A DNA stretch of 64,000 bases from Octopus vulgaris (Eukaryota): contig OX597841.1 of the NCBI GenBank assembly GCA_951406725.2, positions 11,222,001 to 11,286,000 on the forward strand, read 5' to 3'. Below are positions 7,917-55,972 of this stretch, piece after piece; the first letter of the stretch is position 1; every line of letters begins with the position of its first letter. Made by a program: the position numbers and the translations under genes. Below the pieces are notes generated by a model. It was not told the DNA's origin, did not search any database, and saw only the letters and a program-made list of their open reading frames with translations.

Positions 7917-8957
7917 AGTTCTTTCGTCTCATTCCTATGACCTCATCAGTGGTCCTTTGCTTTCTTCTTTCTTATTAGTGTGTCTCTCCTTATTAACGAT
8001 AAGCCATTTTGTATGGCTGATCGTTAGTAAGGAGATTTAGCCCACAAACAAACTGTAAAGCCAGAAATGTAGTCTATAGTATAAGATGGACAGAGGGACG
8101 ATGCAGTAACAAGACAACGACGTACGTAGGGGAAACAGCACGGAGCATAGGAGAGCGGGTAAATGGACATTGGAGGGAACTTAAGGAAGAGGAGAGCTCA
8201 TCGGTTCTGTTCCAGCACGAACACGGAGGCTCACTTAACAACATAAAAGTGAAAATCTTGTCCACACATAGAACAGACGCAACACTTAGACAAATTACAT
8301 AAGTTACATAATAGAACATAAACCTAGCTTGAATAGGAAACTGGAAAGGAACACTAGCACACACTTCCAACACACAACACGACAACATATGACAGAATAA
8401 GATCATCATAAACTGATAACAATATAAACAAAACATAATAAAATACACAGATAAACAAAAGGAATTAAATAACTATATATATATAAATTCAATATTTATA
8501 ATTAAAAAGATTTAATCAAATTAAATACAAAAAAGATAGTAAGTAGGTATAAACAAAATAAATAAAAACAAATTACACGAACGGATACAGATAACACAGG
8601 CACCCCCTCTCACGTACTTACTAAACATAGACACACATAAGGGTATACGCATGCGCAAATAAAGGCACATTCAATAGGAATACGAAATACAAAATAGCTG
8701 ACCGTTAGTAAGGAGAGACACGCAAATAAGAAAGAAGAAAACAAAGGACCACTGATGCGGTCACAGGAGTGTGACGAAAGAACTCTGGCCGAAATAAGAT
8801 TAAGATTAATGTAAAAAATAAATAACGCTGAAGCAAAGTAACACCAAATATATAGTGCGTGTGTTTTTATTGGCTAAACTGGCAAAATGACCATTCCGAA
8901 ATATAACAATATCTGTTTCAACACACGATTTCACATCAAGAATCTTGCAAAACAAAT
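7917..8957 (+). mobile_element. Truncated Penelope-like element: inverted pLTR, GIY-YIG fragment, 3' pLTR
   Basis: 7917-8000 is the reverse complement of ~8702-8785; GIY-YIG remnant at 8051-8350; hammerhead cores at ~7920-7955 (-) and 8746-8790 (+); (TA)n on both sides. Confidence 0.85.
8051..8350 (+). pseudogene. GIY-YIG endonuclease C-terminal remnant (Penelope-like)
   Basis: Translates NCKARNVVYSIRWTEGRCSNKTTTYVGETARSIGERVNGHW...LRQIT* then, after a frameshift, YIIEHKPSLNRKLE. VVY/YVGET/R/LN motifs are typical of the GIY-YIG family. Confidence 0.85.
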
Positions 8958-10121: not shown

Positions 10122-10878
<757 letters not shown>

Positions 10879-11025
10879 TGGGTTGCTCTTCGGATTGATT
10901 TCCATCCTTAACTGTCGCTTGGCAATCGTAGTTATTTCTGCACGCTCCATGCTTGCCCTTCCCGCGGGGAGCCAATCTGTATTAGGAATATAAGGAAATG
11001 TTCAGATCACCAAGCGCGGATCACC

Positions 11026-11191
11026 AGGCGCAGGAGTGGCTGTGTAGTAAGTAGCTTGCTTACCAGCCACATGGTTCCGGGTTCAGTTCCACTGCGTGGC
11101 ATCTTGGGCAAGTGTCTTCTACTATAGCCCCCGCCCGACCAAAGCCTTGTGAGTGGATTTGGTAGACGGAAACTGAAAGAAGCCTGTCGTA

Positions 11192-21477: not shown

Positions 21478-21928
21478 TTAATACATCTTTAATGATTCGC
21501 TACAATTGTTTTTGTACCAACTCTGTTCGCAGTGCAAAATTATGCAAAAATTCGACGTGAAAATTTACATAATGTTTGCTGTTTGGGAAACTAGAGAGAA
21601 GCTTCATCGACTTACATGAAAAGTGTGCTAACTTAAGAACCCGCAGGGAGTGCGGCTTTAAAGCTTTTATATATATATATATTTATAAATGAGGGTGAAA
21701 ATTGATATTAATTTAATAATACCATTAATTTAACACCAAGTGGCTTAGCACATAAAACTAGGGAGATAATACAAATTTATACATAAATTATTAGAGAGTT
21801 ACCACTATGTGGATAGCTCTAGAGCTAAAAATAGCTCCGTTAGTATAGCCACAGAAAAGATGTTTCCAAGTAGAAATATCATTACATTTAACGGAAGGAA
21901 AGTGAAACATAACGAAGAAATAGATTGA

Positions 21929-22002
21929 CCCTGAACAATTGTTTCATTACTAATGTAATATGTAATTTTACTTACATAGACATTTATAAATCATCAGCAG
22001 AG
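21929..22002 (-). ncRNA. Type I hammerhead motif inside a fold-back element (21680-22068)
   Basis: ctctg-CTGATGA-long stem II-GAAA-CAATTG-TT-caggg; flanked by ~46-bp inverted repeats at ~21813-21858 and ~22021-22066. Confidence 0.75.
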
Positions 22003-22070
22003 GTTTGTCTTAAATACAATTTTTTCTGTGGCTATACTAACGGAGCTATTTTTAGCACTAGAACTATTTA

Positions 22071-22355: not shown

Positions 22356-22890
<535 letters not shown>

Positions 22891-24486: not shown

Positions 24487-24535
<49 letters not shown>

Positions 24536-24607
24536 GGTCCCGGGTTGATTCGGGGTTAACCACAGTAAATAAGGTACTCAATACATAGCAGAGTAAAATT
24601 AATTTAT

Positions 24608-24727
24608 TATATAGAAGGAGCTTCTACAGGACTAGAACTGTTTCATTCAAGAGAAATCATCAGGAAGCATCCTGATGATTTCTCTTGAATGAAACAGATC
24701 TAGTCCTGTAGAAGCTCCTTCTATATA
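24608..24727. repeat. Near-perfect 120-bp palindrome with hammerhead-core-like motif on both strands
   Basis: 58-bp arms, 4-nt loop (24666-24669), one mismatch; CTGATGA...GAAAC on each arm; embedded in (TA)n. Confidence 0.8.
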
Positions 24728-24731
24728 TATA

Positions 24732-24775
<44 letters not shown>

Positions 24776-25519: not shown

Positions 25520-26800
25520 ATCGTTCAGTTTTTTCTTTCAAGATTTCTTGCCGGTCGAGAAAGAGCCATTTTCTAACCTAGATTTAAGGCTCCTGCTTCG
25601 AAATTTCAACATTAACAACATGGTTTTTTGTTTGCATGTATGTATGTATGTATGTATGTATGTATGTATGTATGTATGTGTATGTATGTGCAGATTTGTA
25701 TGTTTTATGTGTGTATTCTCGTGCATATAGTTGCATATCTAGACATGCTCATATATATATTCAAATAATAAACTTCTGGAAAGTTTTACAGATTTTTACA
25801 GTTCCAGTGATGGATTGGATCTGTAGTCTTTGAATTAGCTTTCTCCTTTCTGGTTTTGTGAAGCCTAATTTCTCAAGATTGGTATTTAGGCAGTGTGTTA
25901 CATACATATCACAGGGCCCCAATAATTACAGGTATAAACCTGACCTTGTAATCTGGATAGAGTAACTTCAGATTTCTGAATAGTTCAGCGTAGGTGTTCT
26001 CTTTTTCACTCATCTTCAGCTTTATTTCAACATCCGCTGGGAAGCTGATTTCCACAACTCTGCACAGTTTCTCTTCCTCATCCCAAATCATTATGTCAGG
26101 TCTCTTATGCTTACATTTTATTGAGGTCTTCCCGGGGACATTCCACCAATATTCCTTTTTATTATGAATGGCTATGGCTTCTACCACGCTGTCGGTTCTT
26201 ATTTCTTTGTCCTCTGGGTTATCCTTCCCACGGATTTTATTATAGAGTGTCCTAGCTACAACATCTTGTCTCATCGGTAGATAATACAATGATGATATTT
26301 TCGGACAACTGCTTATGATGTGGGTGATATCTTCAGTGTGAACTCCACAAAGTCTGCATCGGTTGTCACACTTTACGGCTTTACTTGCACCTCTATCCCT
26401 TTTGTGCATCAGGTACTTGGTTGATATTTCCTGTTCCTGGATTGCAAACGCATGCCCTTCAAAGTGGAAGGTAGTAATCTGGCTATTGGTCCATGATAAA
26501 CTACTTTGATGATCGAATGTTACTGTCATCTCGGAGCTTTCTACTAACATATCTATACATAGTCTTCTGCTCATAGAGGCTCAACCTTTCATCTGATAAT
26601 ACGTTACAATAGAGACGTGCGACTTCTTTGGGCATGTATTCTAGGTTATCAGACAAAGAGTGTTGCTCAAGGAGCTGCCTTCCGAGTCTTATGATGTTAT
26701 CAGCCTCATGTATGCAAACTTGGTCAAGGGATGCACTTTGACACTTGGTGGTTAAAAGATGTTGCCGAAGGGATATGATGCGACATGCAAAGGCATTTTG
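25520..26800 (-). mobile_element. 5'-truncated RLE-type non-LTR retrotransposon (R4/Dong-like), decayed
   Basis: CCHC knuckle CRLCGVHTEDITHIISSC; restriction-like endonuclease RPDI...VEISFPAD...EKENTY; PVIIGAL; the ORF continues past a stop/frameshift to ~25762. Confidence 0.85.
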
Positions 26801-27639
26801 GATCGATGCTAAGCCTCTTCCTCCTTGATTTTCTTTTAGGTAGAGGCGATCTACATCACTGTTTATGTGGAAATTATGTGTGTTTCTCAGTTACTTTTCA
26901 GGTTTTCCCATCAATGGCTCGGACCTCATCAAGCGTCCAATCAAGCAGCCCAAATGTCGGTATGTATGTATGTTCGTATGTATGTATGTATGTATGTATG
27001 TATGTATGTATGTATGTATGTATGTATGTATGTATGTATGTATGTATGTATGTATGCGTGAATACACACACGCATACATACTCACACAGTATATGGAAGA
27101 TGTATGTAGAAGTCCGAATATCATTTCATGATGTAATAACGCTTTTAGATTTCTTAAATCAAATATTCATATTTGTTCTCTTAAAAACAAAAAGATACAT
27201 TTCTTGGAAAAAATGTTTTAAGTCGAGGGTGTTTGTGTGCCGTTTGTAGGGAAAACGGTAAACGCGTCTACATACAGAATTATCAAACAAGGCGAATAAG
27301 TAAAAAAATGGAAGAATTAACACAAGATCCTTCTAAGACTCCCACTAAATCTCTTTCCTTCTTCGTCTCTCCTCCATTGTTAGGAGTAAAGAAAATACAC
27401 AATATCTGTCATGCGTTAGTATAATGCTAATTCTAATTTTAATTTTAATTTTAATTGACTCAGAGGCTTTCATTTCCTTCTATTTCTTTAAACCTCCCAT
27501 CCACTGTTAAGAAAATCGATCGTATATAATTCCTAAAGATTTTAAATAAACATAGACCTGCTAATTTTGTGATTTCAAGCTATGTCGTACTGTGGGGCTC
27601 ATGAGAACGGCGAAATCGTGCTATCTGCAACTTTTAGGG

Positions 27640-28150: not shown

Positions 28151-28189
28151 TACATATGTATCCTTTTTTCTTTCTTTCTTTCTTTACAG

Positions 28190-28970
28190 GAATCCGTATG
28201 TTTCCCGGTACGCCACTGCTCTTCTCCCGATCGCCATAATCTGCTTCACCTGCCTGCTGTTTTTCTTAATCTATGAATTCTGCTTGTTGTTCTGCCTGAA
28301 GTCCTCCTCTTCGTCGTCATTGTTTTCGACGTCGCCATTGCTCTCGTCCTCATCGCCTCCGTCAGCGTCGATGACAGCTGACACAAGCGGGTCGTTCCCT
28401 CACGGAGCATCCGAAGAGTCGAACAACATGAGCATGTTAGACAGGCCTCCCTCTTACTACGCTCCAACTTCGGCGCCGAGCCGTGTGGGTCTGGTGTGTC
28501 CTGTTGCCGACGGAAGGGCCCAGAATGGCCAGAGCAACGTGGTTATTCCAGTGATGGACCCCGAACTTCTACAACGAATCATAGTTCTGCATCGGATCGA
28601 TGGCACGGAGCATTACCGCATGCTAGAGAAATACGATTGGCTCCCTACGCAACCAGGTGAACTGTACGGCGCCAGCCCGCCGCCGCCGTTTCTCGCCAAC
28701 GCCGAATCGTCTCAAGCACCACACCAACAGCATCTGCAGCAGCCACATCTTTACGACGACAACGACGATGATAACCACGACGACGACGGCGATGAAAATG
28801 ACCAGCAGCAGCAGCAGCAGCAGCACCACAATTGTCAACAACAACAACAACAACAGCAACAACCATCTATGTTAAGTCAAGCTCAGATGCCACCCGTGCT
28901 ATCACCAGCCAGTGACGAGACATTCCTATATCAGAGGTACCACCCGCCACCCCCTTATGAAGCTCCCTAG
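28190..28970 (+). CDS. Terminal coding exon of a single-pass membrane protein with PPxY motifs
   Basis: Strong polypyrimidine tract plus CAG at 28187-28189; open frame NPYVSRY-ATALLPIAIICFTCLLFFLIYEFCLLFCL (TM)-K...RPPSYY...polyD/polyQ...HPPPPYEAP* (TAG 28968-28970); GC-rich, codon-like sequence. Confidence 0.8.
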
Positions 28971-30799: not shown

Positions 30800-31397
<598 letters not shown>

Positions 31398-37036: not shown

Positions 37037-37037
37037 T

Positions 37038-38497
37038 ACGACGGGCTTCTTTCAGTTTCCGTCTACCAAATCCACTCACAAAGCTTTGGTCGGCCCGAGG
37101 CTATAGCAGAAGACACTTGCCCAAGATGCCACGCAGTGGGACTGAACCCGGAACCATGTGGTTGGTTAGCAAGCTACTTACCACACAGCCACTCCTGTGC
37201 CTATATATATATATACATATATACGACGGGCTTCTTTCAGTTTCCGTCTACCAAATCCACTCACAAGGCTTTGGTCGGCCCGAGGCTATAGCAGAAGACA
37301 CTTGCCCAAGATGCCACGCAGTGGGCCTGAACCCAGAACCATGTGGTTGGTTAGCAAGCTACTTACCACACAGCCACTCCTGCGCCTATATATATATACA
37401 TATATACGACGGGCTTCTTTCAGTTTCCGTCTACCAAATCCACTCACAAGGCTTTGGTCGGCCCGAGGCTATAGCAGAAGACACTTGCCCAAGATGCCAC
37501 GCAGTGGCCTGAACCCGGAACAATGTGGTTGGTTAGCAAGCTACTTACCACACAGCCACTCCTGTGCCTATATATATATACATATACATATATACGACGG
37601 GCTTCTTTCAGTTTCCGTCTACCAAATCCACTCACAAGGCTTTGGTCGGCCCGAGGCTATAGTAGAAGACACTTGCCCAAGATGCCACGCAGTGGGACTG
37701 AACCCGGAACCATGTGGTTGGTTAGCAAGCTACTTACCACACAGCCACTCCTGCGCCTATATATATATACATATATACGACGGGCTTCTTTCAGTTTCCG
37801 TCTACCAAATCCACTCACAAGGCTTTGGTCGGCCCGAGGCTATAGCAGAAGACACTTGCCCAAGATGCCACGCAGTGGGACTGAACCCAGAACAATGTGG
37901 TTGGTTAGCAAGCTACTTACCACACAGCCACTCCTGCGCCTATATATATATACATATATACGACGGGCTTCTTTCAGTTTCCGTCTACCAAATCCACTCA
38001 CAAGGCTTTGGTCGGCCCGAGGCTATAGTAGAAGACACTTGCCCAAGATGCCACGCAGTGGGCCTGAACCCGGAACCATGTGGTTGGTTAGCAAGCTACT
38101 TACCACACAGCCACTCCTGCGCCTATATATATATACATATATACGACGGGCTTCTTTCAGTTTCCGTCTACCAAATCCACTCACAAGGCTTTGGTCGGCC
38201 CGAGGCTATAGCAGAAGACACTTGCCCAAGATGCCACGCAGTGGGACTGAACCCGGAACCATGTGGTTGGTTAGCAAGCTACTTACCACACAGCCACTCC
38301 TGCGCCTATATATATATATATATATATATATACGACGGGCTTCTTTCAGTTTCCGTCTACCAAATCCACTCACAAGGCTTTGGTCGGCCCGAGGCTATAG
38401 CAGAAGACACTTGCCCAAGATGCCACGCAGTGGGACTGAACCCGGAACCATGTGGTTGGTTAGCAAGCTACTTACCACACAGCCACTCCTGCGCCTA
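37038..38497 (-). repeat. Tandem array of eight SINE A 5' halves (~183-189 bp period)
   Basis: ACGACGGGCTTCTTTCAG starts at ~37038, 37222, 37406, 37594, 37777, 37960, 38143 and 38332. Confidence 0.95.
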
Positions 38498-38514
38498 TAT
38501 ATATATATATATAT

Positions 38515-40535
38515 ATAATTTCAACAATTGAGGGTAATATTAATTAATTAATTATCAATCAATTTCACCAAGTGTTCAGTATGTAAAGGGACCATTTAAG
38601 GCGAATTCAAATTATTACATTATATAAAAGGGCTTAGTAAAATAAATTACTTTGCCACATACTGAACTCATTAGAAATAGCAGCTAAAAAAAAACTTTTT
38701 TAAAACTATTTCTAATACTTAAAGAAAACCTCTCTCATATAGTGTTTGCTCAATTCAACTCACGAAAGTATGGGGGTAAAGACATTAAAAAATCAGATGC
38801 AAAGGTTATTTGAGAACGTACGTTTCAAGATTAGTCAAACTCGACACTTCTATCATCAGCTCAGAATTCCTTGGTTTGGATTTGAAAACACTGAAAGTGG
38901 GAGCATACCTTTTCGGCTTCTTATCGCTTCTGAAGATCTGCTCGAAACTAACAGTGCCAGCATACCCAAAAAATGCAAGCGAAGAATTTCTGCTCTCCCC
39001 TTTCCACCAGCGTGGGTTAAAATCAGCAAACGCTAAGCTTTTTCGGTAAATCCGAAACATTAAATAGAGAGAGATGAATTATAATTTCAACAATTGAGGG
39101 TAAAATTAATTAATTAATTATCAATCAATTTCACCAAGTGTTCAGTATGTAAAGGGACCATTTAAGGCGAATTCAAATTATTACATTATATAAAAGGGCT
39201 TAGTAAAATAAATTACTTTGCCACATACTGAACTCATTAGAAATAGCAGCCAAAAAAAAAAACTTTTTTAAAACTATTTCTAATACTTAAAGAAAATCTC
39301 TCTCATATAGTGTTTGCTCAATTCAACTCACGAAAGTATGGGGGTAAAGACATTAAAAAATCAGATGCAAAGGTTATTTGAGAACGTACGTTTCAAGATT
39401 AGTCAAAGTCGACATTTCTATCTTCAGCTCAGAATTCCTTGGTTTGGATTTGAAAACACTGAAAGTGGGAGCATACCTTTTCGGCATCCTATCGCTTCCG
39501 AAGATCTGCTCGAAACTAACAGTGCCAGCATACCCAAAAAATGCAAGCCAAGAATTTCTGCTCTCCCCTTTCCACAGGGGAGAGCAGAAATTCTTCGCTT
39601 GCATATTTTGGAGTGTGCTGGCTCTGTTAGTTTCGAGCAGATCTTCGGAAGCGATAAGAAGCCGAAAGGGTATGCTCCCACTTTCAGTGTTTTCAAATCC
39701 AAACCAAGGAATTCTGAGCTGATGATAGAAATGTCGAGTTTGACTAATCTTGAAACGTACGTTCTCAAATAACCTTTGCATCTGATTTTTTAATGTCTTT
39801 ACCCCCATACTTTCGTGAGTTGAATTGAGCAAACACTATATGAGAGAGATTTTCTTTAAGTATTAGAAATAGTTTTAAAAAAGTTTTTTTTTGGCTGCTA
39901 TTTCTAATGAGTTCAGTATGTGGCAAAGTAATTTATTTTACTAAGCCCTTTTATATAATGTAATAATTTGAATTCGCCTTAAATGGTCCCTTTACATACT
40001 GAACACTTGGTGAAATTGATTGATAATTAATTAATTAATATTACCCTCAATTGTTGAAATTATAATTCATCTCTCTATTTAATATTTAATGTTTCGGATT
40101 TACCGAAAAAGCATAGCGTTTGCTGATTTTAACCCATGCTGGTGGAAAGGGGAGAGCAGAAATTCTTCGCTTGCATTTTTTGGGTATGCTGACACTGTTA
40201 GTTTCGAGCAGATCTTCAGAAGCGATAGGATGCCGAAAGGGTATGCTCCCACTTTCAGTGTTTTCAAATCCAAACCAAGGAATTCTGAGCTGAAGATAGA
40301 AATGTCGACTTTGACTAATCTTGAAACGTACGTTCTCAAATAACCTTTGCATCTGATTTTTTAATGTCTTTACCCCCATACTTTCGTGAGTTGAATTGAG
40401 CAAACACTATATGAGAGAGATTTTCTTTAAGTATTAGAAATAGTTTTAAAAAAGTTTTTTTTTTTTTTGGCTGCTATTTCTAATGAGTTCAGTATGTGGC
40501 AAAGTAATTTATTTTACTAAGCCCTTTTATATAAT
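38515..40535. mobile_element. Four ~570-bp hammerhead-bearing units: tandem pair plus inverted tandem pair (retrozyme/PLE-pLTR-like)
   Basis: Inversion centre at 39570-39575; hammerheads tgag-CTGA(T/A)GA-stem II-GAAA-CGTACG-TT-ctca at 38811-38863 (-), 39379-39431 (-), 39715-39767 (+) and 40286-40338 (+); (TA)n on both sides. Confidence 0.85.
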
Positions 40536-40941
40536 ATATATATATATATATATATCGTGAATATAACTTGGTCGCAACACCTGATCTCTGACGGATGAGA
40601 GACTAGCTTTCCAGGAGAAAAAATAAAATGGCAACATTTACAATTGCTGTTTCCTGCTTGTTGCTGATTTAGAAGCCACTTGTTTGTAATCGGTAACCCA
40701 TCCAACGAGTAAATAAGTATTGTACGGTTCGATTCTGGTGGCGCAAACAATGCTTTTCTGCCATACGGTTAAACTCTACACGTCAACAAACACACTAACA
40801 CATACACACACACATGCGGATTATACACATATGTATTTATACATACATGCATTCATATATATACATGCATACACCTCTAATTTCAGTATGAGGCACATTC
40901 TGTTCTCTTTGTTGGAATGTCTATATTTACACACAGATACG

Positions 40942-45079: not shown

Positions 45080-45143
45080 CACCTGATGAGGCTCCTCATT
45101 ACATTGATCTCCACTCACTTCGACAGCCGAAACGATCGTAATG
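45080..45143 (+). ncRNA. Type I hammerhead motif
   Basis: cac-CTGATGA-ggct...agcc-GAAA-CGATCG-TA-atg (one stem I mismatch); ~60 nt upstream of (TA)n. Confidence 0.65.
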
Positions 45144-45206
45144 CTAAATAAAGCTTCTAATTACATTCCGTCTTCCGTATCAGTCAATTAGAATATTTAT
45201 TTATAC

Positions 45207-50099: not shown

Positions 50100-51940
50100 C
50101 TGAAGAGAATAAATGTTTTTTTTTTGTTTTTTTTTTAAATTGGACTAAAAGAAAAGAACTCTTTTTAAACGTAGGAATTAAAATTGAAATGTATGTAAAT
50201 GCGGGAAATAAAGTATAGTTCTTTTTATATTTTATAACTGTTTTTAAATGCTGAAATTTAAGAATTAAACTGTTTTTTATGTATTGAAATAAATAACAGT
50301 TTTTAAATGCAGGAATTAAATATGTTTTTAGATGGAGGTAAAGAGTATATCTGTTTTTAAATGCAAGAATTTAGGAGTATAACTCTTTTACACGTTGAAA
50401 GAAAGAAGTATAATTTTTTAATGCATAAATTAAAGACAATAACTGTTTATATAATGGAATAAAAGCGGATAACTTCTTTTAATTGTTAGAATGAGAGAGT
50501 ATAACAGTTTGTACATGTCTTAACTAGGGTGAATAACTATTTTTTAAATATAGAACTAAAAGTGTATACTCAGAAATATTAAATTTCTAAATATCTCATA
50601 GAGATATGTACGGTGGTGGGGCAATAGAACAGTTGTATACTCTCAATTTAACGTGACAGTAGGGGATTACCCCACCGCTGTTTAGCCCTAGGAAGCATCG
50701 ACGCTTCCTGCCGGCTTCAAAAAAAATATGTGTCGAAGCTGGCAGGAAGCGTCGATGCTTCCTAGAGCTAAACAGCGGTGGTGTAATCCCCTACTGTCAC
50801 GTTAATTTGACAGTATACAACCGTTCTAAAAGTGTATAGCTGTTTCCAAATGCTGAAATGGATGTGTAATAGTAGAGTCAAGGAATTTTAACTGTTTTTA
50901 AGTGTTGTTATGAAGGAGTACAGCTTTTAAAATGTTTTTAAGAAGGAGCACATCTCTTTTGTATTGGATTCAATGAATACTGCTATTTTTTTAAATAATG
51001 AACTTAGAGAAGAGTTTAACTGCTTCTAAGTGTTGGAATGAAAGAATATAACCGTTGTTAAACATTAGAATGATAAAGTATATCTGTTTTTAAATGCGAG
51101 AATGAAAAAGTATCAGTCTTTTTATAAAGGAATGAAAGGGTGTAAGTGTTTTCAAATGTTGCAATGAAGTAGTTTTACATTGAAATGAAAGGGGTAACGC
51201 AGTTTTTAAATGCGGGATTATGAATATATAACCGCTATTTAAACGTGGAAGTGAGGAAATATGCTTAAAAAACTTGAAGGAAAGATCATAATCATTTTCA
51301 ACGTTAAAAAAATCTGTGTTTAATGTTGGATTGAAGAAACTGTTTTGATGGGGAAACAAAGGGATATAATTTTTGTTAAGCATTGCAGTTTAAATTATAT
51401 CTGTTTTTAAAGTTTACAAACTTAGAGAATGAAAAGGCGTTACTGTCTTTAAATGAAGGAAAGAAAAATCATAACAGTTTTTAATGAATGGAAGAAGTAG
51501 TATAGCTGTGTTATAACGAAGGTATATAACTATTTAATGTGGTGGGAAAGAAGTATAACTATTTTAAACTGTTATATTGAAGGAATATAACTGTTTTGTT
51601 TTTGTTGGAATGTAAAAGTACAACTATTTCAGATTGAACGAGTATAACTGCTTTTAATGATGAGCTGAAGTATAACTGTTTTCGTATAAACGAATATGAC
51701 TGTTTTTAATATTAGAATGTAAAAGTACTGTTATTTCTGATCGAAAGGATATAACTGTTTTTAGTGATGAGCTTATGAAGTATAGCAGTTTTCGTATGAA
51801 AAAATATAGCTTTTCAAATATTACTTTGAAAAGAGTAAGTGTATTTTGAAATGCTGGAAAGGAATATATCAGTTTTTAAATGCCGGAAGCAGAGTAAAAC
51901 TGTTTATAATTGTGGAATTTATGAGTAAAACTGTTTAACA
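50100..51940. repeat. Old, degenerate AT-rich minisatellite (~33 bp)
   Basis: Recurrent GAATGAAAGAGTATAACTGTTTTTAAATG-like units. Confidence 0.65.
50625..50828. mobile_element. Fold-back MITE with ~93-bp TIRs and TA flanks
   Basis: TAGAACAGTTGTATAC...GCTTC / GAAGC...GTATACAACCGTTCTA with a 16-nt spacer. Confidence 0.85.
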
Positions 51941-55395: not shown

Positions 55396-55587
55396 CAAGC
55401 ATACATAATTTCTTTCAGTTTCTGTCTACCAAATCCACTCACAATGCTTTAGTCAGCTTATATTAGAAAACACTTGTCCAAGGTGCCACGAGGTGGGACT
55501 GAACTCGGAACCATGTGGTTGACAAGCAAACTTCTTTCCACACAGCCACGCCTGCGCAAAGAATATGTTTATAAGCGTAAGTGCACA

Positions 55588-55972
55588 TAGGCGCGGGAGT
55601 GGCTGTGTGGTAAGTAGCTTGCTTACCAACCACGTGGTTCCGGGTTCAGTCCCACTGCGCGGCATCTTGGGCAAGTGTCTTCTACTATAGCCTCGGGCCG
55701 ACCAATGCCTTGTGAGTGGATTTGGTAGACGGAAACTGAAAGAAGCCTGTCGTATATATGTATGCGTGTATGTCTGTGTGTCTGTGTTTGTCCCCCTAGC
55801 ATTGCTTGACAACCGATGCTGGTGTGTTTATGTCCCCGTCACTTAGCGGTTCGGCAAAAGAGACCGATAGAATAAGTACTGGGCTTACAAAAGAATAAGT
55901 CCCGCGGTCGAGTTGCTTGATTAAAGGCGGTGCTCCAGCATGGCCGCAGTCAAATGACTGAAACAAGTAAAA
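55588..55972 (+). mobile_element. SINE family A, full length
   Basis: Matches consensus; inverted head at 55409-55557. Confidence 0.9.

What the first reader, a model, noticed from the sequence alone, without database searches (positions are those of the whole stretch)
38515..40535. 2-kb four-unit hammerhead array: candidate ~570-nt retrozyme / circular-RNA-forming element
Seen: four copies of a ~570-bp non-coding unit between (TA)n tracts, two pointing left and two pointing right from a centre at 39570-39575. Each carries an intact minimal type I hammerhead (CUGANGA, GAAA, palindromic CGUACG stem III, GUU site). Hammerheads are 568 nt apart on the left arm and 571 nt apart on the right. Established: minimal hammerheads with palindromic stem III cleave as dimers when tandem, and tandem hammerhead repeats (retrozymes, Penelope pLTRs) release unit-length RNAs that can circularise. 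Inference: transcription of either strand could release a ~570-nt monomer, and the whole locus could fold into a ~1-kb hairpin.
Basis: partly seen in the sequence, partly recalled or inferred. Interest (0 to 1): 0.85.

Follow-up and report, generated by a model that had tools for sequence, protein, structure and literature searches.

The report
Octopus hammerhead repeat, head-to-head insertion
This is a real, fairly young insertion of a high-copy, non-coding octopus repeat whose 570-base unit carries a self-cutting (hammerhead) RNA motif; its mirror-image layout is the usual footprint of Penelope-like retrotransposons, and neither cutting nor RNA circles have been shown for it.

Summary
The structure is real. 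Two head-to-head arms (1062 and 960 nt) of a non-coding ~570-nt unit sit in a (TA)n tract and carry four type I hammerhead cores, 568 and 571 nt apart. The window is Octopus vulgaris. The unit belongs to a high-copy family.

Best reading: a retrozyme-type, non-autonomous Penelope-like (PLE) element, inserted as the known 'partial tandem plus inverted 5'-truncated copy'. Three other families in the same window show the same geometry, one with a GIY-YIG remnant.

- Only two units are complete, so each arm holds one monomer.
- The cores are not fully canonical: U.U replaces G10.1-C11.1, and GUU lets A14 pair with U17.
- The double-hammerhead fold lies 6-14 kcal/mol above the minimum.
- A read-through transcript folds into a 933-bp hairpin that pairs all four cores, so the hairpin and monomer release exclude each other.
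- No element end lies at a cut site.

The arms are not mirror copies, which argues against a fold-back artefact and hints at two RNA templates. Cleavage, circles and expression are untested. Verdict: new member of a known kind.

The parts
38496..38517 (.). (TA)11 target tract, left half; tail of an array of eight 183-nt SINE-like units. TATA at 38514-38517 is shared with the unit (microhomology)
38514..39001 (-). L1, outer left unit, partial (488 nt); its outer end is 301 nt downstream of the predicted cut
38811..38863 (-). Hammerhead L1 (CUGAUGA type); predicted cut after U17 at 38815
38815..39382 (-). Predicted left cut-to-cut monomer, 568 nt, 34% GC; circular fold z -5.7 against 40 shuffles
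39002..39575 (-). L2, inner left unit, complete plus 6 nt; starts 193 nt upstream of its predicted cut
39379..39431 (-). Hammerhead L2 (CUGAAGA type); predicted cut after U17 at 39383
39570..39577 (.). Head-to-head junction: 6-nt loop; the arms stop 6 nt apart in unit phase, with a possible 2-nt (AG/CT) microhomology
39576..40147 (+). R1, inner right unit, complete (572 nt); starts 188 nt upstream of its predicted cut
39715..39767 (+). Hammerhead R1 (CUGAUGA type); predicted cut after U17 at 39763
39764..40334 (+). Predicted right cut-to-cut monomer, 571 nt, 33% GC, longest stop-free frame 84 codons; circular fold 61% paired, z -4.8 against 40 shuffles
40148..40535 (+). R2, outer right unit, partial (388 nt); ends 201 nt downstream of the predicted cut, at TATATAAT
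40286..40338 (+). Hammerhead R2 (CUGAAGA type); predicted cut after U17 at 40334
40534..40555 (.). (AT)11 target tract, right half, followed by single-copy DNA

Best explanation
The locus is one young insertion of a high-copy, non-coding, retrozyme-type repeat of Octopus vulgaris. It is most likely moved in trans by the RT/GIY-YIG protein of a Penelope-like element (PLE) into a (TA)n tract.

Shown:
- the anatomy
- the high copy level and conserved core of the family
- a common origin of the four units
- non-mirror arms
- the same geometry in PLE-derived neighbours

Inferred mechanism: the PLE protein nicks both strands of the TA tract. Each 3' end primes at a TA-rich site inside an RNA more than one unit long that still spans both hammerheads. 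Two cDNAs of about 1 kb grow towards each other and are joined at their 5'-truncated ends, giving the PLE 'partial tandem plus inverted copy'.

Inferred function: the hammerheads are family-level, dimer-type motifs, probably slow. At this locus, read-through RNA would form a long hairpin (a dsRNA substrate) rather than monomers. This copy is therefore probably a dead-end product, and any circles would come from other, tandem copies.
For: - Host: a window exon is 100% identical over 260 aa to an O. vulgaris protein. PLEs cover 6.83% of that genome, with 336 recently active insertions.
- Family: summed contig depth on the unit is 1.4e5-1.3e6, against 35.5 and 42.4 on the single-copy flank, in 2 of 2 DNA-like runs laid. 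This is not a copy number, but it is 3-4 orders above the flank.
- Core conservation: no listed variant at 40311-40352, and only N7 varies in CUGANGA (5 rows not shown).
- One source: all four units have C at the 40353 position, where 99.9% (X1) and 98.8% (X3) of depth has T. All four have A at the 40282 position, where 92% and 75% has G.
- Two templates: of 6 sites that split the units 2:2, four group R1+L1 against R2+L2, one groups by arm, and only one groups mirror partners.
- Ends: both outer ends are RNA-3' ends joined to TA at TA-rich microhomologies. None of the 4 arm ends is at a cut site.
- Same layout nearby: 7917-8784 (GIY-YIG frame 76% identical over 41 aa to an O. vulgaris RT protein), 24604-24732 and 30852-31194.
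- Literature: the inverted 5'-truncated copy and TA bias are PLE hallmarks (PMC8557442). A PLE protein cuts and extends both strands at AT-rich DNA, primes internally and mainly uses uncleaved RNA (PMC11167929). Animal retrozymes are related to PLE pLTRs (Li 2026).
Against: - No autonomous partner with sequence similarity to the unit was found. BLAST of the unit against the window hits only this locus, and no whole genome was available.
- The 30-40-nt PLE 'tail' is not met: the two outer ends differ by about 100 nt.
- A target-site duplication cannot be read in (TA)n.
- The two arms stop only 6 nt apart in unit phase, and the 24.6-kb and 31.0-kb palindromes also have 3-4-nt loops. Snap-back priming explains that better than two independent cDNAs, unless both RNAs share a 5' end.
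- The 2:2 sites are mosaic (three incompatible splits), so gene conversion or assembly polishing may have scrambled them.
- No contig among those shown spans the centre or the right junction; 40441-40565 was skipped by the tool.
Confidence: 0.74

Rival explanations
1. One reading: this locus is an active source that releases 568- and 571-nt monomers by double-hammerhead cleavage, and these are ligated into circles.
For: - Each arm has two cores one unit apart.
- In single-arm folds the two stem-III 8-mers pair with P 0.97-1.0.
- The double hammerhead beats two monomer folds by about 5-12 kcal/mol.
- The monomer is well folded.
- An axolotl hammerhead with U.U at the base of stem II cleaves, and better as a dimer (PMC7229834).
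Against: - It needs transcription to start within about 190 nt of the centre; read-through RNA pairs all four cores.
- The active dimer fold is 5.8-13.9 kcal/mol above the minimum, and U17 pairs with A14 at P about 0.9.
- Minimal PLE hammerheads cleave poorly in vitro (PMC4209133).
- Only 1 of 9 predicted dimers cleaved.
- No RNA-seq read ends were found at the cut site of the anole PLE.
Confidence: 0.12
2. The palindrome arose at DNA level (fold-back replication or snap-back second-strand synthesis) from one tandem arm of a hammerhead satellite, without a second RNA template.
For: The centre is a near-perfect hairpin with a 6-nt loop. Two other palindromes in the window have 3-4-nt loops. Another fold-back joint of the family is seen in one contig of run X3 (40216/40313).
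Against: It predicts mirror identity. Mirror pairs differ by 9 substitutions each over the shared ~389 columns, while the non-mirror pair R2-L2 differs by 4. Only 1 of 6 shared-split sites is mirror-type. R1 has 4 private differences within 50 nt of the centre. The arms also end at different TA-rich unit positions.
Confidence: 0.1
3. The palindrome is an assembly or library fold-back artefact in a repeat-rich region.
For: The unit is very high copy, and the left flank is a tandem SINE-like array. No independent read or contig across the centre was obtained.
Against: The inner arms are only 96.3% identical. The arms have different lengths and different flanks. All four units share rare variants, and the layout matches documented PLE insertions.
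Confidence: 0.04

Closest known systems
Metazoan non-LTR retrozymes (Cervera & de la Pena 2020, PMC7229834; Li, Clavereau & Pollet 2026, bioRxiv 10.64898/2026.07.22.740005)
   Same: Non-coding head-to-tail units with one type I hammerhead each. Low GC (33%; under 45% in the family). Self-paired monomer, high copy, co-existing with PLEs. The unit length falls within the 51-972 bp range of Li 2026.
   Different: Longer than the 170-400-nt invertebrate circles of Cervera 2020. The hammerhead is non-canonical (4-bp stem I, U.U base of stem II, GUU site). The layout is head-to-head: 'inverted' occurs 0 times in Cervera 2020 and once, in a reference title, in Li 2026. Cleavage, expression and circles are not shown.
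Penelope-like element insertions with pLTR hammerheads (Cervera & de la Pena 2014, PMC4209133; Craig et al. 2021, PMC8557442)
   Same: Partial tandem plus an inverted 5'-truncated copy at the 5' end. Insertion into (TA)n. Palindromic stem III and short stem I. Opposite-strand hammerhead pairs a few hundred bases apart.
   Different: No RT or GIY-YIG ORF between the repeats. No G10.1-C11.1 pair. No 30-40-nt tail. Both arms are tandem.
Axolotl retrozyme Rtz_353 with HHR_Amex2 (PMC7229834)
   Same: U.U mismatch at the base of stem II, stem III of two pairs capped by a tetraloop, and works best as a dimer.
   Different: Its unit is 350 nt, and its cleavage and circles were shown experimentally. 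No sequence comparison was made here.
Poseidon element PAc of Anolis carolinensis (Frangieh et al. 2024, PMC11167929)
   Same: Offers the mechanism: both strands are cut and extended at AT-rich DNA, priming is internal on the RNA, and hammerhead cleavage is not needed.
   Different: PAc is autonomous and primes without homology in an AC-rich stem loop, 111-118 nt into the ORF. Here the ends lie 201 and 301 nt past the cut, at TA-rich microhomologies.

Membership tests
Metazoan non-LTR retrozyme | At least two consecutive head-to-tail units, each with a complete type I hammerhead core | tested here: met
   Two cores per arm, 568 and 571 nt apart
Metazoan non-LTR retrozyme | No protein-coding capacity | tested here: met
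   Longest stop-free frame in the monomer is 84 codons. No Pfam hit for the two 153-aa frames across the centre. No tblastn hit of P0001 on the unit.
Metazoan non-LTR retrozyme | Multi-copy family in the genome | tested here: met
   Summed depth 3-4 orders above the single-copy flank in 2 of 2 DNA-like runs laid; the copy number itself was not determined
Metazoan non-LTR retrozyme | Low-GC, highly self-paired monomer | tested here: met
   GC 33-34%, 61% paired, z -4.8 and -5.7 against 40 shuffles each
Metazoan non-LTR retrozyme | Canonical type I hammerhead (stem I about 6 bp, stem II 4 bp, loop 1-loop 2 contacts), as in Cervera 2020 | tested here: not met
   Stem I is 4 bp and stem II is interrupted with a U.U base; no Rfam hammerhead hit. 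Li 2026 also accepts minimal motifs, so this lowers membership only in the narrow sense.
Metazoan non-LTR retrozyme | Self-cleavage of dimers | not testable with these tools
   Folding only: the active dimer fold is 5.8-13.9 kcal/mol above the minimum
Metazoan non-LTR retrozyme | Expression as unit-length linear and circular RNA | tested here: inconclusive
   No holder is on record as RNA; only contigs could be laid, and these show no ends or strand
PLE minimal hammerhead (Cervera 2014) | Core CUGANGA / GAAA / UH with palindromic positions 15.2-16.2 and loop 3 | tested here: met
   Self-complementary 8-mer in 4 of 4 cores
PLE minimal hammerhead (Cervera 2014) | [quoted passage not shown] | tested here: not met
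   U.U at the base of stem II in 4 of 4 cores. Family variants restore a pair: 40297 A in 4% (X1) and 14% (X3) of depth, and an A before GAAA in loose ends of 1 and 2 contigs.
PLE-type insertion | Partial tandem with an inverted 5'-truncated copy at the 5' end | tested here: met
   described in PMC8557442 and PMC8969392
PLE-type insertion | Insertion into (TA)n | tested here: met
   (TA)11 and (AT)11 flanks; the empty allele was not seen
PLE-type insertion | 30-40-nt tail extension at one end (often present, not obligatory) | tested here: not met
   The outer ends differ by about 100 nt in unit phase
Non-autonomous PLE | Sequence shared with the pLTR of an autonomous PLE | tested here: inconclusive
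   Only the window could be searched and gave no hit; no genome was held. One 407-nt contig leaves the unit at 40330, but its letters were not shown.
Autonomous PLE | RT plus GIY-YIG ORF between pLTRs | tested here: not met

The most novel reading that the evidence does not exclude
The locus is a direct footprint of PLE machinery moving a purely non-coding retrozyme RNA. Both target strands were primed on two separate, uncut, more-than-unit transcripts (unit order A-B on one arm and B-A on the other). This would explain how PLE inverted structures form. Other copies of this high-copy family, perhaps a subfamily with a fully paired stem II, make ~570-nt hammerhead circles in octopus. My searches found no report of retrozymes in cephalopods or of head-to-head retrozymes.
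Probability: 0.2. Interest if true: 0.6.

Novelty: new member of a known kind. Interest (0 to 1): 0.35.

Why it matters
Retrozymes are assumed to borrow PLE enzymes, but the evidence in the papers read is co-occurrence and pLTR similarity. A non-coding hammerhead tandem that carries the PLE inverted-copy and TA-target hallmarks supports that link from insertion anatomy. The unit variants also make the unresolved origin of PLE inverted structures testable: mirror arms mean snap-back, non-mirror arms mean two templates.

For octopus it flags a large hammerhead family. The 2026 O. vulgaris repeat annotation was not among the papers holding the word hammerhead, and its one supplement has no mention. 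Such palindromes would be ready-made long dsRNA if transcribed.

None of this is a new kind of system, and the locus itself is probably an inert copy.

Tried and rejected
Searches that found nothing:
- Rfam: no hammerhead family at the gathering threshold. At E<=10 only hairpin-driven miRNA and other chance matches appeared, all below their gathering scores.
- Whole-genome search for copy number and a partner: no genome is held.
- Hammerhead pattern in metagenome contigs: 0 loci.
- tRNA module, as in earlier finding e1-7810660: 0 genes in the window.
- Coding remnant in the unit: none.
- Earlier notes on this sequence or genome: none.

Expression: no RNA holder listed. Two runs only guessed to be RNA gave 41 and 62 contigs. 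Their depth was 2-234 on the unit and about 3 on the flank; I take this as no evidence either way. Their contigs carry C at N7 and A at 10.1 (3 contigs in X8, 1 in X10), a variant rare in the DNA-like runs. It is a lead only.

Covariation in the monomer fold: of 12 family-variable positions that are paired with P>=0.75, 7 keep a pair and 5 break it (one search read). This is inconclusive. The other 18 of the 30 positions examined were unpaired or weakly paired.

Circular A-B dimer as template: both arms are shorter than a dimer and the orders A-B and B-A fit. A linear A-B-A source fits equally well, same-type units still differ at 4-8 sites, and a circle gives no reason for both arms to stop at the same phase. 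I do not favour it.

Literature gaps: Lunse et al. 2017 on dimeric PLE hammerheads is recalled only; it is not held. That GUU sites cleave more slowly than GUC is recalled; one search found no paper to cite.

Full report
Observation. A unit of 568-572 nt occurs twice on the minus strand (L1 38514-39001, L2 39002-39575) and twice on the plus strand (R1 39576-40147, R2 40148-40535). The arms meet at a 6-nt loop and lie between (TA)11 and (AT)11. Only the inner units are complete. Four hammerhead cores lie 568 and 571 nt apart, with predicted cuts after 38815, 39383, 39763 and 40334. The specific pattern gave 4 matches against 0 in 100 shuffles. A looser pattern gave 7 matches in the window against a mean of 0.05, so other hammerhead families are present too. 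Rfam does not recognise the motifs.

Host and family. An exon 10 kb to the left is 100% identical over 260 aa to an Octopus vulgaris predicted protein. No genome was held, so I used public runs. Of 24 listed runs, 20 (9 studies) hold part of 39960-40920, and none is on record as RNA. I laid 4 of them, all contigs. In the two DNA-like runs (organism labels A and B), summed depth on the unit was 1.4e5-1.3e6 against 35.5 and 42.4 on the single-copy flank. The tool warns that this is no copy number, and overlapping short contigs inflate it.

Family variation. Among the variant rows shown (5 more were not), none falls in 40311-40352, which holds GAAA, stem III, the cut site and the 3' strand of stem I. 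In CUGANGA only N7 varies. That pattern fits selection on the core at family level. All four units here carry C at the 40353 position, where 99.9% and 98.8% of depth has T, and A at the 40282 position, where 92% and 75% has G. They therefore come from one source lineage. Over the shared columns they differ by 4-9 substitutions, so the insertion is young.

The ribozyme. The core matches the consensus given in PMC7151607 (passages). Stem III is a self-complementary 8-mer and stem I is 4 bp, as in PLE minimal hammerheads (PMC4209133, parts 1-2 of 4 read). The G10.1-C11.1 pair that paper calls highly conserved is replaced by U.U in all four cores. An axolotl retrozyme hammerhead with that defect does cleave, better as a dimer (PMC7229834, passages and parts 3-4 of 6 read). 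Family variants that restore a pair exist at low share.

Folding of single arms. The two stem-III 8-mers pair with P 0.97-1.0, as the dimer model needs. The helix runs on into A14-U17 pairs (P 0.86-0.91), and the swapped stem I pairs reach only 0.00-0.20. In 4 of 4 stretches folded, the forced double hammerhead lay 5.8-13.9 kcal/mol above the minimum, and two monomer folds lay 12.6-20.7 above it. These energies ignore tertiary contacts, proteins and co-transcriptional order, so they do not exclude cleavage. The monomers fold well as circles (z -4.8 and -5.7; the antisense strand also scores -3.7). Of nine predicted Xenopus dimers, one cleaved (Li et al. 2026, parts 1-3 of 5 read).

The hairpin. 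Folded whole, the plus strand forms 933 pairs across the centre, and the core positions checked pair with the other arm except N7 of R1. The minus strand was not folded but should behave alike by symmetry. Read-through RNA would be a long dsRNA. Monomers need a start within about 190 nt of the centre, for which I have no evidence.

Architecture. Craig et al. (PMC8557442, passages and section 15 read) describe PLE insertions as partial tandems, often with an inverted 5'-truncated copy at the 5' end. They also report (TA)n bias in Naiads and link it to a CX2-5CxxC linker shared with Neptune. Cervera 2014 saw opposite-strand minimal hammerheads 100-700 bp apart. Goubert et al. (PMC8969392, passages) list inverted pLTRs as a routine feature.

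Neighbours in the window. The same outward-pointing layout next to TA tracts occurs at 24604-24732, 30852-31194 and 7917-8784. None of these has a BLAST match to this unit. The last contains a broken GIY-YIG-like frame (Pfam E 0.012, below cutoff). It is 76% identical over 41 aa to the C-terminus of an 803-aa O. vulgaris RT-domain protein, whose CxxxxCxxC linker points to Neptune or Nematis (my reading). O. vulgaris has 190 PLE families covering 6.83% of the genome, with 336 recently active insertions (PMC13282606, part 1 of 3 and a supplement search). Partners are plausible, but none was matched to this unit.

How it formed (inference). Both outer ends are 3' ends in hammerhead sense. They join the TA tract at TA-rich unit positions 301 and 201 nt past the cut. 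The inner ends lie 193 and 188 nt before the cut. No end is at a cut site, so the template spanned both hammerheads, either uncut or circular. An anole PLE protein cuts and extends both strands of AT-rich DNA, primes internally and mainly uses unprocessed RNA (PMC11167929, parts 1-2 of 4 read). Priming of both strands would give exactly this geometry.

One template or two. A fold-back of one arm predicts mirror identity. Instead, four of six 2:2 sites group R1 with L1 and R2 with L2, one groups by arm, and one by mirror. Against this reading, the arms stop only 6 nt apart in phase and the neighbouring palindromes have 3-4-nt loops, which suits snap-back. The sites are also mosaic, so conversion or polishing may have altered them. 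A shared RNA 5' end would reconcile the two, but it is untested. The non-mirror arms, unequal lengths and distinct flanks make an artefact unlikely. No independent sequence across the centre or the right junction was obtained, because the tool skipped 40441-40565.

Comparison and verdict. It works like a metazoan non-LTR retrozyme moved by PLE enzymes. It meets the sequence-level criteria in the broad sense of Li 2026 and fails the canonical-hammerhead criterion of Cervera 2020. It remains untested for cleavage and circles. Searches for octopus + Penelope + hammerhead, retrozyme + cephalopod and retrozyme + inverted + head-to-head found no description of such a family. The library lacks most subscription papers, and I did not see Repbase, Dfam or the closed bioRxiv supplements of Li 2026, which list families. 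Earlier AI notes from this scan describe similar elements in other genomes; they are leads, not support. Verdict: a new member of a known kind, interest 0.35.

Noticed in passing
window 7917-8784: PLE 3' remnant beside (TA)n: broken GIY-YIG-like frame at 8021-8299 (76% over 41 aa to O. vulgaris RT protein P0001), a hammerhead-like motif at 7949(-) and a decayed copy on the + strand, in inverted arms.
   Followed up: partly
window 30852-31194: Near-perfect 343-nt palindrome beside a TA tract, with outward-pointing hammerheads (CUGACGA, A-U base of stem II, GUA site) at 30985(-) and 31063(+); another family.
   Followed up: partly
window 24533-24732: Short head-to-head palindrome in (TA)n whose centre lies a few bases before CUGAUGA cores at 24663(-) and 24672(+); these also have U.U at the base of stem II.
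   Followed up: partly
window 45083-45145: Single hammerhead-like motif with a G-C pair at the base of stem II and palindromic CGAUCG, about 50 nt before a TA tract.
   Followed up: no
window 21997(-), 22758(-), 52882(-), 59671(-): Further single hammerhead-like motifs; 21997 and 22758 lie between short inverted arms (21813-22067, 22558-22890).
   Followed up: no
window 37037-38515: Eight tandem copies of a 183-nt SINE-like unit, each ending in a TA tract, directly left of the finding. Inverted pairs of the same repeat occur at 10730-11173 and 55410-55744. The SINE label is recalled, not from a call.
   Followed up: no
window 50625-50828: A 204-nt GC-richer palindrome with no hammerhead core found and no TA flank; MITE-like, unexplained.
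   Followed up: no
window 25909-26890: Minus-strand frames resembling the C-terminal part of a non-LTR retrotransposon ORF (zf-RVT E 3e-4, below cutoff).
   Followed up: partly
window 28188-28970: Coding exon, 100% identical to an O. vulgaris hypothetical protein, on the + strand about 10 kb upstream of the finding. Read-through from it would make the hairpin, not monomers.
   Followed up: partly
window 40294-40297 (runs X8, X10): Contigs from the two runs guessed to be RNA carry C at N7 and A at 10.1 (paired base of stem II), a variant rare in the DNA-like runs; based on 3 and 1 contigs only.
   Followed up: no
window 40260-40330 (run X8, record 29): A 407-nt contig matches the unit up to stem III and then continues in other sequence; possibly a partner PLE or sister family, letters not shown.
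   Followed up: no
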